Source of the DNA: Eledone cirrhosa | Lineage: Eukaryota | Direction: 5' to 3' | Assembly: GCA_964016885.1 (NCBI GenBank) | Contig: OZ024750.1 | Location: forward strand, 19,220,001 to 19,284,000 | Length of the DNA: 64,000 nt | In this document: positions 7,582 to 63,567 of the stretch, in pieces | How positions within the stretch are numbered: the stretch's first letter is position 1 | Layout: each line of letters begins with the position of its first letter | Notes under the pieces: generated by a model | Told to the model about the DNA's origin: nothing | Seen by the model: the letters and a program-made list of their open reading frames with translations, nothing else | Databases searched by the model: none | Position numbers and translations under genes: made by a program

Positions 7582-8245
7582 TCAAGGTGGTTGAGTAATC
7601 GTAGGAATGTTAATCCAGTTAAAAAGTAGATGCGATTTCAGATGTGGACAACATCTAAAGATCTCGGTCTTAGAGTTGAGGCAAGTGGAAGGGGCTTTCA
7701 AGTTTTGGAGAATTCTAAATTTTTCCGAGGTGCACAAAGAACATTTCTTTGTGCCTCTTTAGTATTCGCTTGAATGGTCTAAAATAGACCAATCAATAGT
7801 ATACGGAATGTTTTTGTCTTTAAATTCCCACACTTTATTTGCCAGCGCCGTTGCAGTTCTTTTATCAGGGTGTTTAAAAGAAGCGATATGTGCATAATAT
7901 CTAGTTTTGAATCTGTCCTGAGTCATGCCAACATATCGTTCACTCCTGGCTGGCTGGTTATTAATCATCGGTGTCAATTTGACCTCATACACAATGGATT
8001 TGGTATTACATTTACCCTGTAATGGGTATTCTTCAGGCTTCTTGCAACTACATCCTGGATTCACTCTCGTACGCTTAGAATTGGTAATTTTAGTCTTCAT
8101 TGATGGGCAGCAAGGTAACTGATTTTGATTACATTTCTATTAAATATCTTATTATATCTATGATTAGGGAGAAAATGTCTGTCTAGGAGGTCGAGGCATT
8201 TTCTTCCTACATTAGTTTTAACAGTTATAGAGAAGAGGGGATGTA
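7582..8245 (-). pseudogene. Penelope-like retroelement C-terminal fragment (linker + GIY-YIG endonuclease), decayed
   Basis: Translates to PLFSITVKTNVGRKCLDLLDRHF..KIFNRNVIKISY, frameshift, then CSC..PLQGKC..IVY..YVGMT..FKTRY..H..SF..IDWSIL..Y*..CSLCTSEK..LNSKTEIFRCCPH; motifs typical of PLE endonucleases (Naiad/Neptune-like from memory); internal stop at 7759. Confidence 0.9.
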
Positions 8246-21888: not shown

Positions 21889-21914
<26 letters not shown>

Positions 21915-21920
<6 letters not shown>

Positions 21921-22369
21921 ATTAAATAAATGGAAACTATATTTATAAAACCATATTTATTTCATTATATATATTTCAGGGATATCATACTAACAATATG
22001 CTATGCCTTCCTCAGACAAAATACAATATAAACAGTTTTATAGATAAATAGATTTGACATACCGTAACAACATCGACTTGTATTTGAAAAGTTGAATTGG
22101 CAGTTCAACTTTTCAAATACAAGTCGATGTTGTTACGGTATGTCAAATCTATTTATCTATAAAACTGTTTATATTGTATTTTGTCTGAGGAAGGCATAGC
22201 ATATTGTTAGTATGATATCCCTGAAATATATATAATGAAATAAATATGGTTTTATAAATATAGTTTCCATTTATTTAATATTGTAAATATACTCCAAATA
22301 CTTGTCGAGTGCTTTTATATCAGTTATAAATATTTACTAGTTGTAACCCAACAATTTAAATATAACTTT

Positions 22370-33714: not shown

Positions 33715-35665
33715 CGCCCCCCCCCCATAAAACATATACGGACCTCACATAAAAAAACGGGGCACCCAAATAAAAAACGGGGCACCCAAATAAAAAACTG
33801 ACCCGCCCCCATAAAAAACGGGGCACCCAAATAAAAAACGCCCCCCCCCCCATAAAAAAACCGGGCACCCCCCAAAAAAACGGACCCCCATAAAAAACGG
33901 GGCACCCAAATAAAAAACGGGGCACCCAAATAAAAAACGGACCCCCCCATAAAAAAATGGGGCACCCAAATAAAAAACGGGGCATCCAAATAAGAAAACA
34001 ATTTTTAATGTTGGTGCCCCGTTTTTTATTTGGGTGCCCCGTTTTTTTATGGGGGGTCCGTTTTTTATTTGGGTGCCCAGTTTTTTATTTGGGTGCCCCG
34101 TTTTTTTATGGGAGGTCGGTTTTTTATTTGGGTGCCCCGTTTTTTTATGGGGGTTCCGTTTTTCATTTGGGTGCCCCGTTCTTTATTTGGGTGCCCCGTT
34201 TTTTATTTGGGTGCCCGTTTTTTTATGGGAGGTCGGTTTTTTATTTGGGTGCCCCGTTTTTTTATGGGGGTTCCGTTTTTCATTTGGGTGCCCCGTTCTT
34301 TATTTGGGTGCCCCGTTTTTTATTTGGGTGCCCGTTTTTTTTATGGTGGTTCCGTTTTTTATTTGGGTGCCCCGTTTTTTTATTTGGGTGCCCCGTTTTT
34401 TTATGGGGGGGGGGTCCGTTTTTTATTTGGGTGCCCCGTTTTTTTATAGGGGGGTCCCTTTTTTATTTGGGTGCCCCGTTCTTTTATGGGGGGGGGTCCG
34501 CTTTTTATTTGGGTGCCTCGTTTTTTCATGGGGGGGGGGGGGGGGGGGGCGTTTTTTATTTGGGTGCCCCGTTTTTTTATGGGGGGGCCGTTTTTTATTT
34601 GGGTGTCCCGTTTTTTAATGGGGGGTCCGTTTTTTATTTGGTTGCCCCGTTTTTTATGGGGGGGGGGGTCCGTTTTTTATTTGGGTGCCCCGTTTTTTAT
34701 TTGGGTGCGCCGTTTTTTATTTGGGTGCCCCGTTTTTTATTTGGGTGCCCCGCTTTTTTTATCGGGGGTCCGTCTTCTATTTGGGTGCCCCGTTTTTTAT
34801 TTGGGTGCCCCGCTTTTTTTTATCGGGGGTCCGTTTTCTATTTGGGTGCCCCGTTTTTTTATGGGGGGGGGTCCGTTTTTTATTTGGGTGCCCCGTTTTT
34901 TTATGGGGGGGGGGTCCGTTTTTTATTTGGTTGCCCCGTTTTTTTATGGCGGGGGTCCGTTTTTTATTTGGGTGCCCAGTTTTTTAATGGGGGGGGGGGT
35001 CCGTTTTTTATTTGGGTGCCCCTTTTTTTATTTGGGTGCCCCGTTTTTTTTATGGGGGGGCCGTTTTTTATTTGGGTGCCCCGTTTTTTTATGGGGGTGG
35101 TCCGTTTTTTATTTGGGTGCCCCGTTTTTGTATGGTGGGGGGCACCCAAATAAAAAACGGACCTCCTCCATAAAAAAACGGGGCACCCAAATAAAAAACG
35201 GACCCCGCCCATAAAAAAACGGGGCACCCAAATAAAAAACGGGGTACCCAAATAAAAAACGGACCCCCCCATAAAAAAACGGGGCACCCAAATAAAAAAC
35301 GGACCCCCCCCCCATAAAAAAACGGGGCACCCAAATAAAAAACGGACCCCCCCCATAAAAAAACGGGGCACCCAAATAAAAAACGGACCCCCCCATACAA
35401 AAACGGGGCACCCAAATAAAAAACGGGGCACCCAAATAAAAAACGGGGCACCCAAATAAAAAACGGACCCCCCCATAAAAAAACGGGGCACCCAAATAAA
35501 AAACGGACGCCCCCATAAAAAACGAGGCACCCAAATAAAAAACGGACCCCCCCATAAAAAAACAGGGCACCCAAATAAAAAACGGGGCACCCAAATAAAA
35601 AACGGACCCCCCCCATAAAAAAACGGGGCACCCAAATAAAAAACGGGGCACCCAAATAAAAAACG
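33715..35665. repeat. Satellite of two ~20-bp subunits (AAAAAACGGGGCACCCAAAT and AAAAAACGGACCCCCCCAT) in three blocks of alternating orientation
   Basis: A-rich 33715-33992, T-rich 34012-35138, A-rich 35139-35665. Confidence 0.97.
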
Positions 35666-36124
35666 CACCACATGTACAAATTGGAGACAGTATTTCCGCA
35701 GAGAACAGTTATCGATACTTGTTGCATCAACCATTCCATGCCACGGTGCGCCTTTTTGAGTCGTGAGGCTCTTCACCTGATTTTGTCAAGAAAAACGAAA
35801 GTCTGGACATCAAGGAAAATGGGAATTTACGTGTCGATTGACGCAAAAAGGAAACGGCTAAGCAATGTCTGGTATTTCGTAATGCGAATGTATCACCTGG
35901 ATTTATGGCCAAAATGATGAGAATTACACTATAAAAATAAATCTCGGAAATATGTAACGTATGTATGAGATTTAACTGAGAGAGATAATGTTTGTGATAG
36001 TGTTATAGAATGTATGTGTGTGTGTGTGTTTGTGTGTGCCTGTGTACGAGTGTGAATAGAAGTGAATAATGTGATAATTAATCTTTGATAGTTGGAATGA
36101 ATATAAGATAGCAGAGTGGGTGTT

Positions 36125-37868: not shown

Positions 37869-38529
37869 ACTAGAGATTGATTAACATATAAATAAACATG
37901 AATAATCACAGGAGATAATTTTTACAAGTGTGTAACCACACATAGCTAGGTAGGTAACTAAATAAAGTTGACCAGAACTTCAAAAATAGATACCTTATAA
38001 TATGATTTATATAATATGATATATATAATATATATAATCAATTAAGTTAAAAATGTACATCTACATATGCATACTGAAATACTAGTGTGTATATGAATAC
38101 ACACATGTATACATATGCAGATGTAACAAGTCTTTCACTGGTTGCTTTACTGTGAGCAACTCAGCTATTCTGTATGTAAACACACAGACAAACCGGTTTT
38201 TAGAGTCATACTGGTTTTCGAGGAAACATCTTCCCTCTATTCTCCAGAAAGCCAGACAAGGAATATTGAACTAGTTTCGTTGTTGTTACAACTCATCAGC
38301 AATATTTACCTATCTACCGGCCTTTCTGGAGAATTGTAAAAGCACATATCGTTATATGCTTTTTCTATGAAAATTAGTAGTGGGCAGACTAATTTGCATA
38401 GAGTGTGAGTACGCACCGTTTGTGAGTACGCAACAATTTTAACTTAATTGTTTAAGCGTCAGTCATACAAAAGTGAGTTACAAACGAAACGAAATTTAAT
38501 TTCGTTTCGTTATTTGTTTTTAATATATA

Positions 38530-38604
<75 letters not shown>

Positions 38605-38660
38605 GTGATGCATTAAAACACAATTTATTAACATATTACAACAACTATATATATATATAT

Positions 38661-38858
38661 AGGTACGTTATTCCGGGTTGAATCGGAGGTAACCAAAGTA
38701 AGTAAGGTACTCAATACATTGCAGAGTATAAAAGTTTTCATATAGATGAGATTCTACAGGACTAGAACTGTTTCATTCTTTAGAAATCATCAGGAATCTC
38801 ATTTCTGATGATTTCTAAAGAATGAAACAGTTCTAGTCCTGTAGAATCTCATCTATAT
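38661..38858 (-). mobile_element. Fold-back element (family P2): 53-bp inverted arms with hammerhead, ~80-bp one-sided tail
   Basis: Arms 38741-38793 / 38805-38857; homologous copy at 63397-63567. Confidence 0.88.
38746..38802 (-). ncRNA. Type I hammerhead ribozyme with all three stems
   Basis: ATGAGATTC-CTGATGA-T-TTC-TAAA-GAA-T-GAAA-CAG-TTCTAGTC-CTG-TA-GAATCTCAT: 9-bp stem I, 3-bp stem II, 4-bp stem III, GUA triplet. Confidence 0.8.
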
Positions 38859-38959
38859 TAATATATATATATATATATATACATATATAGTTTTTGGAAT
38901 ATGTTAATAAATTGTGTTTTAATGCATCACTGATATATATATACCTATGTTTCATGAAA

Positions 38960-45233: not shown

Positions 45234-45819
45234 TTCGTTTCTGAATTTGTTTAGCAAGATTCTTTATCTGAAATCGTGTGTTGAAACCGATATTGTTATG
45301 CTTTGGGAGGGTCATGTTGCCAATAAGAAACACACGCACCAGTTGCTTTCACTTCAATTTATTATATATTTATAAATTTATAAATTTACAAATCTACAAA
45401 CTTATAAATTATAAATTTCTGGTTGGTTGGTTGGTTCCACAACCAGATAGTTGTTTATATATATAGTCATAGTCCTTTCGTCACACACTCTGTGACCTCT
45501 TCAGTGACTGGGGATTCCTTTCTTCGTTTCTGTGCCTTTTCACACACAGAAACAAAATGGCGTAGGATAGAAGAAAGAAAAGGCACAGAAACGAAGAAGG
45601 AATCCCCAGTCACTGAAGAGGTCACAGAGTGTGTGACGAAAGGACTATCACTATATATATAAACAACTATCTGGTTGTGGAACCAACCAACCAACCAGAA
45701 ATTTATAATTTATAAGTTTGTAGATTTGTAAATTTATAAATTTATAAATATATAATAAATTGAAGTGAAAGCAACTGGTGCGTGTGTTTCTTATTGGCAA
45801 CATTACCCTCCCAAAGTAT

Positions 45820-45827
<8 letters not shown>
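45233..45827. mobile_element. Fold-back element: ~250-bp inverted arms with hammerhead, 35-bp spacer, ~57-bp one-sided tail, within (TA)n
   Basis: Arms 45290-45541 / 45577-45827 with few mismatches; terminus TATTGTTAT..TTGGGAGGGTCAT recurs near 26434. Confidence 0.9.
45465..45509 (-). ncRNA. Minimal type I hammerhead ribozyme (mirror copy 45608-45652 on +)
   Basis: AGTCA-CTGAAGA-G-GTCACA-GAGTG-TGTGAC-GAAA-G-GA-C-TA-TGACT: 5-bp stem I, 6-bp stem II, 2-bp stem III, CUA triplet. Confidence 0.8.
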
Positions 45828-46835: not shown

Positions 46836-46870
46836 TCTTCTGATGAACGACTAGCGTCCGAAACGTTAAC
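46836..46870 (+). ncRNA. Minimal hammerhead-like motif
   Basis: CTGATGA-AC-GAC-TAGC-GTC-C-GAAACGTT with palindromic AACGTT; weak stem I. Confidence 0.5.
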
Positions 46871-48470: not shown

Positions 48471-48531
48471 TATTTTATCTGATGAGGGTGTACCAAAATT
48501 TTGGTACCCTTGAAATATATATAATCAAATA
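48471..48531 (+). ncRNA. Type I hammerhead motif, same family as 22177-22242
   Basis: TATTTTAT-CTGATGA-GGGT-GTACCAAA-AT-TTTGGTAC-CCTT-GAAA-TATATA-TA-ATCAAATA; downstream AATATGGTTTTATAAA shared with 22243 onward. Confidence 0.75.
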
Positions 48532-48564
48532 AATATGGTTTTATAAAGATAGTTTTCATATATA

Positions 48565-57745: not shown

Positions 57746-58081
57746 GGTGAGAATATTCCGACGAAAGCGTTTTGTGATTTGTAAATTCCGTACGGTCATT
57801 TAATGATTTTCTGATTTTTGTTTTTGCCTGGTAAACTCAAAATTACAAAGAGTATATTGACTATCTCAGTGAGTAACCTAACAGCTGCTACTATTCGTTT
57901 CCTGAAGATTAAAAACAAATAATGTCCCAGTTGATATTAATATTGTTTTAACTTCAAAGTGGATATCTACAGACGAAATAATTAAGATAATGAATCCGCT
58001 GGGAAATTTTTTCCTACTATGTAGACAAATTGAAAACAACTAAATTACTTCTAGTTTTCATTTTGTATCAAACGTATATAT

Positions 58082-58133
<52 letters not shown>

Positions 58134-58469
58134 ATATATACGTTTGATACAAAATGAAAACTAGAAGTAATTTAGTTGTTTTCAATTTGTCTACATAGTA
58201 GGAAAAATTTCCCAGCGGATTCATTATCTTAATTATTTCGTCTGTAGATATCCACTTTGAAGTTAAAACAATATTAATATCAACTGGGACATTATTTGTT
58301 TTTAATCTTCAGGAAACGAATAGTAGCAGCTGTTAGGTTACTCACTGAGATAGTCAATATACTCTTTGTAATTTTGAGTTTACCAGGCAAAAACAAAAAT
58401 CAGAAAATCATTAAATGACCGTACGGAATTTACAAATCACAAAACGCTTTCGTCGGAATACTTCTCACC
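57746..58469. repeat. Inverted duplication of ~330 bp host DNA centred on (TA)n
   Basis: Arms identical except about two 1-nt indels; centre near 58108. Confidence 0.96.
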
Positions 58470-63396: not shown

Positions 63397-63567
63397 TTTA
63401 ATATAGAAATTGCTTCTACAGGACTAGAACTGTTTCATTCAGGAGAAATCATTCTCCGAATGAAACAGTTCTAGAAGCCATTTTCTATATTAAAAAAATT
63501 ATACTCTGCTATGTATTGAGTACTTTACTTACTGTGGTTACTCTCGATTGAACCCGGGATAAACTTA
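63397..63567 (+). mobile_element. Family P2 fold-back copy within (TA)n
   Basis: CTAGAACTGTTTCATTC / GAATGAAACAGTTCTAG arms; tail is reverse complement of 38661-38735. Confidence 0.82.

What the first reader, a model, noticed from the sequence alone, without database searches (positions are those of the whole stretch)
38746..38802. Most complete hammerhead: 9-bp stem I, GUA site, minus strand
Seen: all core nucleotides and three helices are present (ATGAGATTC/GAATCTCAT, TTC/GAA, ACAG/CTGT). The homologue near 63430-63455 keeps TTC..GAA but changes the loop (TAAA to TCCT). The U-U pair at the base of stem II is non-canonical. The mirrored + copy lacks the 5' strand of stem I, so the fold-back point lies right at the ribozyme.
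Basis: partly seen in the sequence, partly recalled or inferred. Interest (0 to 1): 0.72.

Follow-up and report, generated by a model that had tools for sequence, protein, structure and literature searches.

The report
Penelope stub starting at its hammerhead
This hammerhead-shaped motif is the front end of a young, high-copy Penelope-type jumping gene that landed as two short back-to-back copies; three of its nine claimed stem pairs come from the insertion joint, and the copies' ends likely mark where the element's capped RNA begins rather than where the ribozyme would cut.

Summary
The motif is there as described. It is the type I hammerhead of a young Hydra-clade Penelope-like element: 1,829 exact 73-nt copies; intact 713-aa RT–endonuclease ORFs begin 181 nt behind stem I. 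The locus is a 139-nt stub plus a 57-nt inverted arm in (TA)n, a known Penelope layout.

The 9-bp stem I is not the family's. Native stem I is 6 bp, with two double-sided pair changes across three subfamilies. The outer three pairs arise at the joint. In context a perfect hairpin hides the ribozyme.

Fold-back is not set by cleavage: 2,019 arms end at the first base of stem I, 18 at the cut site. Those ends lie 30 nt behind a TATA box and mostly carry one non-native G (79 of 100; 75 of 100 in a second subfamily), as expected from copying an RNA cap. Both arms are therefore likely cDNAs of the uncut, capped sense RNA, primed from both sides of the break.

Cleavage and start site are untested; no RNA run was listed.

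The parts
38661..38799 (-). Main arm: bases +1 to about +139 of the element's 5' end (hammerhead plus about 85 nt); ends in (TA)n
   Evidence: 133 of 139 identical to the 5' end of the intact element in L098; 98-99% to 39 other scored copies
38794..38799 (-). Native 5' strand of stem I (6 nt); 38799 is +1, the inferred transcription start
   Evidence: native upstream context in 5,614 exact matches; TATA box at -30, CCAAT at -84 in L098
38755..38793 (-). Hammerhead core, stem II (U-U plus 3 bp), stem III (4 bp, loop with central CUAG palindrome), predicted cut after A17 at 38755
   Evidence: stems II and III invariant in alignment A1
38749..38754 (-). Native 3' strand of stem I (6 nt)
38800..38804 (-). 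Junction: one non-native G at 38800 (likely copied cap), 2 nt that extend stem I to 9 bp (likely short snap-back on the cDNA), 2 untemplated nt
   Evidence: native base at -1 is C; G at -1 in 79 of 100 listed non-C ends, ATG at -3..-1 in 13 of 100 (hand tally)
38805..38861 (+). Inverted arm: +7 to about +63 of the same RNA, outer end blurred by TA microhomology
   Evidence: inverted arms in 47 of 57 short copies
38709..38727 (-). ACTC...GAGT bulged-stem motif a few bases behind the usual outer end of inverted arms; candidate copying-start signal (lead from earlier scan notes)
   Evidence: present in the five rows of A1 that reach it, subfamilies A, B and C; function not tested
38646..38660 (.). 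(TA)n target run at the 3' end of the main arm
   Evidence: TA run next to the main arm in 89 of 90 copies
38862..38889 (.). (TA)n target run at the outer end of the inverted arm

Best explanation
The motif is the hammerhead at the 5' end of a young Hydra-clade Penelope-like retroelement, and this locus is a short two-armed insertion likely made by copying the element's uncut, capped RNA from both sides of a break in (TA)n. Shown: family identity, intact parent ORFs, 6-bp native stem I, clustering of both arm ends at the first base of stem I, promoter-like boxes at fixed distance, the extra G, and the rarity of ends at the cut site. Inferred: a Pol II promoter in the pLTR starts the RNA at +1; the RT-endonuclease nicks both strands; one DNA end primes near +134 to +139 and the other near +55 to +67; both cDNAs run off the capped end, gain a C opposite the cap, and are joined head to head. 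Here one cDNA end snapped back on its own copy of stem I for 2 nt before joining, which produced the 9-bp helix. The ribozyme is likely weak or needs a partner or protein; cutting at +45 would remove the cap from the mRNA or split tandem read-through RNA, but it is not needed for insertion.
For: Family and parent: 1,829 exact copies versus 0 for the reversed control; ORF start follows the tail in most of L031-L060; full 713-714-aa ORFs in 5 of 14 fetched regions with RWR, DKT, CxCx5C, CxxC, CxH and no GxKF/Y, the Hydra marks of PMC8557442 section 11. Ends: of 90 copies taken in genome order, 57 are short; 54 of 57 main arms start at -2..+7 and 41 of 47 inverted arms at -2..+10; main arms end at +131..+139 in 89 of 90; inverted arms end at +52..+73 in 52 of 53. 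Promoter: TATA at -30 in subfamilies A and B, -29 in C (read), although the spacer sequence differs. Extra G: 79 of 100 listed ends in A, 75 of 100 in B, where native is C and snap-back predicts T; 9 of 11 B ends joined straight to TA-rich DNA have it; 7 A junctions carry it on both arms. An extra G marks cap copying in full-length L1 insertions (PMC11702581). Cut-site ends: 18, control boundary 7. Uncut RNA is the main substrate and both strands are extended in a Poseidon element in vitro (PMC11167929).
Against: No start-site data were obtained, so the start and the cap are inferred from DNA. Many extra Gs can also come from the other arm (which reads ...CAGG at the joint) or, in subfamily A, from snap-back; the clean subset is small (11 ends, chosen by eye). 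Native context of subfamily B rests on 3 copies. The pattern starts at +7, so main-arm ends further inside could not be seen. D. virilis Penelope has a TATA-less internal promoter (PMC2377424). The hammerhead fold has a computed probability of only 0.001-0.016 in isolated 57-60-nt RNAs and Rfam does not score it. Tallies are by hand and cover the first 100 of 782 and 2,019 matches.
Confidence: 0.78

Rival explanations
1. Ends pile up at stem I because the growing cDNA snaps back on its own copy of stem I (or the RT stalls there), with no RNA end at +1; the extra G is the first snap-back base.
For: Snap-back happens: ATG at -3..-1 in 13 of 100 listed ends, longer matches in L007 and L063, and the focal joint itself. 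The boundary coincides exactly with the end of the helix.
Against: In subfamily B snap-back predicts T at -1 but G is seen in 75 of 100 and T in 11. A TATA box sits 29-33 nt upstream in three subfamilies. 33 of 90 copies read through the site into the promoter.
Confidence: 0.12
2. One reading: ribozyme cleavage makes the RNA end, and the fold-back lies where the ribozyme cuts; this copy is an active, unusually complete hammerhead.
For: All core bases and three helices are present; a small excess of ends at +46 (18 versus 7 at a control boundary, filters not identical).
Against: Ends cluster 45 nt upstream of the cut (2,019, both arm types, versus 18 main-arm ends). Both arms cross the cut site intact. 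The outer three pairs are paired only in the focal row of A1 for columns 43 and 44 (1 of 6). In context P(hammerhead fold) is about 1e-47.
Confidence: 0.04
3. The inverted arm comes from self-priming on an antisense transcript, as suggested for Penelope head-to-head inversions, or the +1 boundary is a splice acceptor as in D. virilis.
For: PMC3846280 argues for self-priming on an antisense template; in D. virilis the intron ends at the 5' end of helix I (PMC4209133); subfamily A has a T-rich tract and CAG there.
Against: Seven junctions have the extra G on both arms, as two cDNAs of one kind of sense RNA would. No shared exon 1 precedes the ends. Subfamily B has no AG at that place. The two arms have different fixed outer ends.
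Confidence: 0.06

Closest known systems
Hydra clade of C-terminal EN+ Penelope-like elements (Craig et al. 2021, PMC8557442; passages, section 11 and supplement hits read)
   Same: Single ORF of about 710 aa with RT then GIY-YIG-type EN, DKT, CxCx5C linker, CxxC and CxH, hammerhead in the pLTR, (TA)n target, inverted 5'-truncated copy and one-sided tail
   Different: RWR instead of RWK; a different family from Hydra-1_Obim (other N-terminus and hammerhead); tail of about 70-80 nt rather than 30-40; about 2.6 kb microsatellite-rich 3' region in L098; TATA-type promoter with start at stem I not described in what I read
PLE type I hammerheads (Cervera and de la Pena 2014, PMC4209133; abstract, Results, Discussion read)
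   Same: Type I topology in the pLTR, 6-bp helix I, palindromic loop III that could pair between two copies (-12.8 kcal/mol), many solo and opposite-strand copies
   Different: U10.1-U11.1 instead of G-C, short stem II without the extra unpaired base, a real 4-bp stem III
Poseidon_Ac in vitro (Frangieh et al. 2024, PMC11167929; parts 1-2 of 4 read)
   Same: Two internal copying starts that define the tail, both target strands extended, AT-rich target, uncut RNA as substrate
   Different: There the starts lie 111-118 nt inside the ORF and the hammerhead overlaps the start codon; here both lie in the 5' UTR, so priming on the RNA's front end yields a stub with no coding sequence
L1 twin priming and cap-derived extra G (PMC11702581; passages read)
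   Same: Second primer from the other DNA end gives an inverted piece; extra G at full-length 5' ends
   Different: In L1 the two pieces cover different parts of the RNA and meet internally; here both run to the RNA's 5' end and overlap
Animal non-LTR retrozymes (bioRxiv 10.64898/2026.07.22.740005; part 1 of 5 read)
   Same: Type I hammerhead, PLE-derived; short tandem units of the element's 5' end exist (L004, L045, L049, L050)
   Different: This locus is a single stub with an inverted arm, not a tandem array, and does not begin at the cut site

Membership tests
Type I hammerhead ribozyme | Core C3 U4 G5 A6 N7 G8 A9, G12 A13 A14, A15.1-U16.1, H17 | tested here: met
   N7 is U in subfamilies A and B, A in C
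Type I hammerhead ribozyme | Three helices supported by comparison | tested here: met
   Stem I 6 bp with 2 double-sided changes over three subfamilies; stems II and III invariant (uninformative) while loop II varies; few independent events
Type I hammerhead ribozyme | Paired 10.1-11.1 position (usually G-C) | tested here: not met
   U-U in 7 of 7 rows; natural U-U variants are reported and U-U is the best-tolerated mismatch (PMC3088659, passage), so this marks a variant and does not exclude it
Type I hammerhead ribozyme | Score above an Rfam hammerhead threshold | tested here: not met
   12.4 bits versus 48.5; no hammerhead hit for the native copy
Type I hammerhead ribozyme | Self-cleavage after H17 | not testable with these tools
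   needs an assay; computed fold probability is low
EN+ Penelope-like element, Hydra clade | Single ORF, RT followed by C-terminal GIY-YIG-type endonuclease | tested here: met
   713-aa ORF with YRDD at 347 and EN after 580; Pfam GIY-YIG only faint (E 0.069); 692 homologues at E<=1e-20, nearly all unnamed
EN+ Penelope-like element, Hydra clade | DKT, CxCx5C, CxxC and CxH, no GxKF/Y, RWK | tested here: met
   RWR in place of RWK
EN+ Penelope-like element, Hydra clade | Placement in the clade by RT phylogeny | not tested
   no tree built; resemblance to the published Hydra alignment judged by eye
EN+ Penelope-like element, Hydra clade | pLTR with hammerhead, inverted 5' copy, one-sided tail, (TA)n target | tested here: met
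Non-LTR retrozyme | At least two tandem units each with a hammerhead | tested here: not met
   one unit per arm at this locus

The most novel reading that the evidence does not exclude
Both arms of Penelope head-to-head insertions are cDNAs of the capped, uncut sense RNA, primed from the two ends of one break at two fixed sites, and in this group of families transcription starts on the first base of the hammerhead, so the ribozyme is placed to remove the cap from the element's own mRNA. Thousands of genomic joints then record the start site and the cap and settle the open sense-versus-antisense question about how Penelope inversions form.
Probability: 0.6. Interest if true: 0.62.

Novelty: new member of a known kind. 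Interest (0 to 1): 0.4.

Why it matters
As a ribozyme find it is ordinary: hammerheads in Penelope pLTRs, inverted copies and (TA)n targeting are in print. The useful part is the joint record. How Penelope inversions arise is stated as open (PMC8557442, PMC3846280), and the role of the hammerhead is unclear. Here a TATA box at -30, a hard boundary at +1, a cap-like extra G on both arms and near absence of cut-site ends point to one testable scheme, in a young family with intact ORFs suited to an in vitro system. It also warns that stems scored at single fold-back loci can be lengthened by the insertion itself.

Tried and rejected
Expression: no RNA holder listed (4 runs of unknown kind, one study), and no reads were laid, so start site, strand and cleavage in vivo remain open. 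Rfam on the whole window gave mostly microsatellite noise; among the 150 of 308 rows shown the only hammerhead hit was at 38246-38317. Repeat finder output was swamped by (TA)n. The first genome search ranked copies by likeness to the focal joint and was not used for counts; the genome-order sample was used instead (90 of the 100 listed places, all on contig C1; 10 not fetched). 3' ends scored by local alignment are smeared by TA microhomology (+137/+139 and +73 are upper bounds). Splice-acceptor and retrozyme readings were considered and rejected (see rivals, membership). The 41-43-nt inverted flanks outside the TA runs are not part of the element: they belong to another repeat family. Literature searches for a Penelope start site or cap signature found no paper describing an extra G or a start at stem I in PLEs; the library lacks most subscription papers, the Craig supplement is stored cut, and bioRxiv supplements are closed. 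Scan look-ups by words and by sequence returned nothing. That the host is an octopus is my recalled guess from its repeat landscape, not tested.

Full report
Observation. The minus strand at 38802-38746 reads as described: 9-nt arm, complete core, U-U plus three pairs in stem II, four pairs in stem III, GUA with A17 at 38755. A mirror copy starts at C3 on the plus strand at 38805. The two arms form a near-perfect hairpin of -89.9 kcal/mol (z -20.7) between two (TA)n runs. The core pattern occurs twice in the window and never in 100 shuffles. Rfam gives no meaningful hammerhead score.

Family. The window lies in a 3.0-Gb genome. The 142-nt stretch had 1,436 candidates, 40 scored, at 98-100% identity. 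A 73-nt exact pattern has 1,829 matches and its reversed control 0. Following the sequence behind the usual 3' end led to an ORF start. Of 14 regions fetched, 5 (L096, L097, L098, L100, L101) hold the full ORF of 713-714 aa from the first Met, and others hold broken or partial versions. L098 has the order pLTR with hammerhead, 5' UTR, ORF from +182, long microsatellite-rich 3' region, second pLTR with hammerhead. The protein has RWR, DKT, YRDD, CxCx5C, CxxC and CxH and lacks GxKF/Y; these are the marks of the Hydra clade in PMC8557442. It is not Hydra-1_Obim. No tree was built. The focal main arm matches the first 139 nt of L098 at 133 positions.

Stem I is 6 bp. Copies that keep upstream sequence have C at -1 to -2, not the focal bases; this native context has 5,614 exact matches. 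Two sister subfamilies exist: B, the type at 63414-63452 (211 exact matches to one variant), and C (2,583 matches). In a 7-row alignment the six inner pairs hold in 35 of 36 cells with double-sided changes at two positions, while two of the three outer pairs form only in the focal row. Stems II and III never vary and loop II does; U-U at 10.1/11.1 is in all rows. That variant is reported in natural hammerheads (PMC3088659). The covariation rests on few events, so it is supportive, not strong.

Where copies end. I took 90 of the first 100 listed exact copies in genome order. 57 lack promoter sequence. Of these 54 begin at -2..+7 (+1 = first base of stem I; the pattern hides ends beyond +7, and one of the 54, L065, is a variant that really extends to about -14). 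47 of the 57 have an inverted arm, and 41 of those 47 arms, which the pattern did not constrain, stop at -2..+10. Main arms end at +131..+139 in 89 of 90, inverted arms at +52..+73 in 52 of 53. A TA run follows the main arm in 89 of 90. Subfamilies B and C show the same boundary at their own stem I.

Why at +1. L098 has CCAAT at -84, CACCC at -73 and -57, a TATA box at -30 and an initiator-like word around +1 (the consensus positions are established knowledge, recalled). TATA is at -30 to -33 in nearly all distinct promoter-bearing A and B copies and -29 in C. Among arms that reach +1 with a non-native base at -1, the base is G in 79 of the first 100 of 2,019 in A (7 of the other 21 are point variants of long copies) and in 75 of the first 100 of 782 in B; both tallies are by hand. 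In B the native base is C and snap-back predicts T. Many B cases can borrow the G from the opposite arm, but 9 of 11 ends joined straight to TA-rich DNA also have it. In A, 7 junctions have the G on both arms, 5 of them with a single A/T between (two of the five lie 2.3 kb apart and may be one event). In L1, an extra G at full-length 5' junctions reflects the cap (PMC11702581). I read +1 as a capped Pol II start. This is inference from DNA alone.

Cleavage does not set the ends. Main arms that begin at the cut site number 18, against 7 at a control boundary four bases on; only 7 of the 18 have G in front. The templates were therefore mostly uncut, as found in vitro for Poseidon_Ac, where core mutants insert normally and cleavage needs the protein (PMC11167929).

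The focal joint. From the main arm outward it holds the extra G, two bases that continue the complement of the 3' strand of stem I, two further bases, then the other arm cut back to +7. The simplest path is a cDNA end that paired over 6-7 nt with its own copy of stem I, grew 2 nt, and was then joined. Such ATG ends occur in 13 of 100 listed A ends, and L063 has almost the same joint.

Is the ribozyme active? Untested. The hammerhead fold has a computed probability of 0.0015 in the 57-nt focal RNA, 0.001-0.016 in native 60-mers and about 1e-47 in genomic context; stem III pairs better between two molecules (-12.8 kcal/mol) than within one (-1.4). These energies ignore tertiary contacts and protein. 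Low activity and dimer use fit PMC4209133. The focal copy has no promoter and is most likely inert.

Comparison and novelty. Hammerheads in pLTRs, inverted truncated copies, tails and (TA)n targeting are published. TATA and initiator motifs in a pLTR were noted in a rotifer Penelope, while D. virilis uses a TATA-less internal promoter. PMC3846280 explained head-to-head inversions by self-priming on an antisense template and left the question open; the two-sided extra G favours two cDNAs of sense RNA. The scan has already described this layout, twin priming and an RNA start near the ribozyme for other families of this genome; these are unchecked notes and not independent evidence. The extra G did not appear in the lines shown to me or in my paper searches. 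Verdict: a new family member of a known system, with a misread stem and one useful mechanistic clue. Interest 0.40.

Noticed in passing
window 38246-38317 (-): A second, unrelated type I hammerhead 450 nt away (7-bp stem I, G-C at 10.1/11.1, minimal palindromic stem III); Rfam HH9 38.6 bits, E 3e-6.
   Followed up: no
window 45290-45827, 21909-22291, 46840-46870, 48479-48545: Further hammerhead-like cores of other families, two of them as head-to-head palindromes.
   Followed up: no
window 38603-38645 and 38890-38931: The insertion sits in the central (TA)n of an older inverted pair from a different repeat family (33 exact matches of a 31-mer); that family also ends in (TA)n, forms fold-backs and has a similar hairpin near its end.
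   Followed up: partly
window 7759-8136 (-): 125-aa fragment with a CxCx5C linker and GIY-YIG-like stretch, likely another Hydra-type element; no Pfam hit.
   Followed up: partly
window 63399-63565: Subfamily B stub: both arms lack the start of the core and one arm has an internal deletion between two TAG words.
   Followed up: partly
L098:3211-5400 and L096, L097, L100, L101: Intact elements carry a 1-2 kb (TA/TG)n-rich tract inside their own 3' region that differs between copies.
   Followed up: no
L004, L045, L049, L050, L175: Short tandem units that join the 5' UTR or ORF start back to the stem I region, retrozyme-like by-products of the element.
   Followed up: no
G000: Native-context matches are lopsided (3,823 forward, 1,791 reverse), which hints at a large tandem array of about 2,000 units somewhere.
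   Followed up: no
window 33752-35669 and 57746-58469: A 20-nt satellite in two opposed arrays, and a 726-bp 99% palindrome centred on (TA)n.
   Followed up: no
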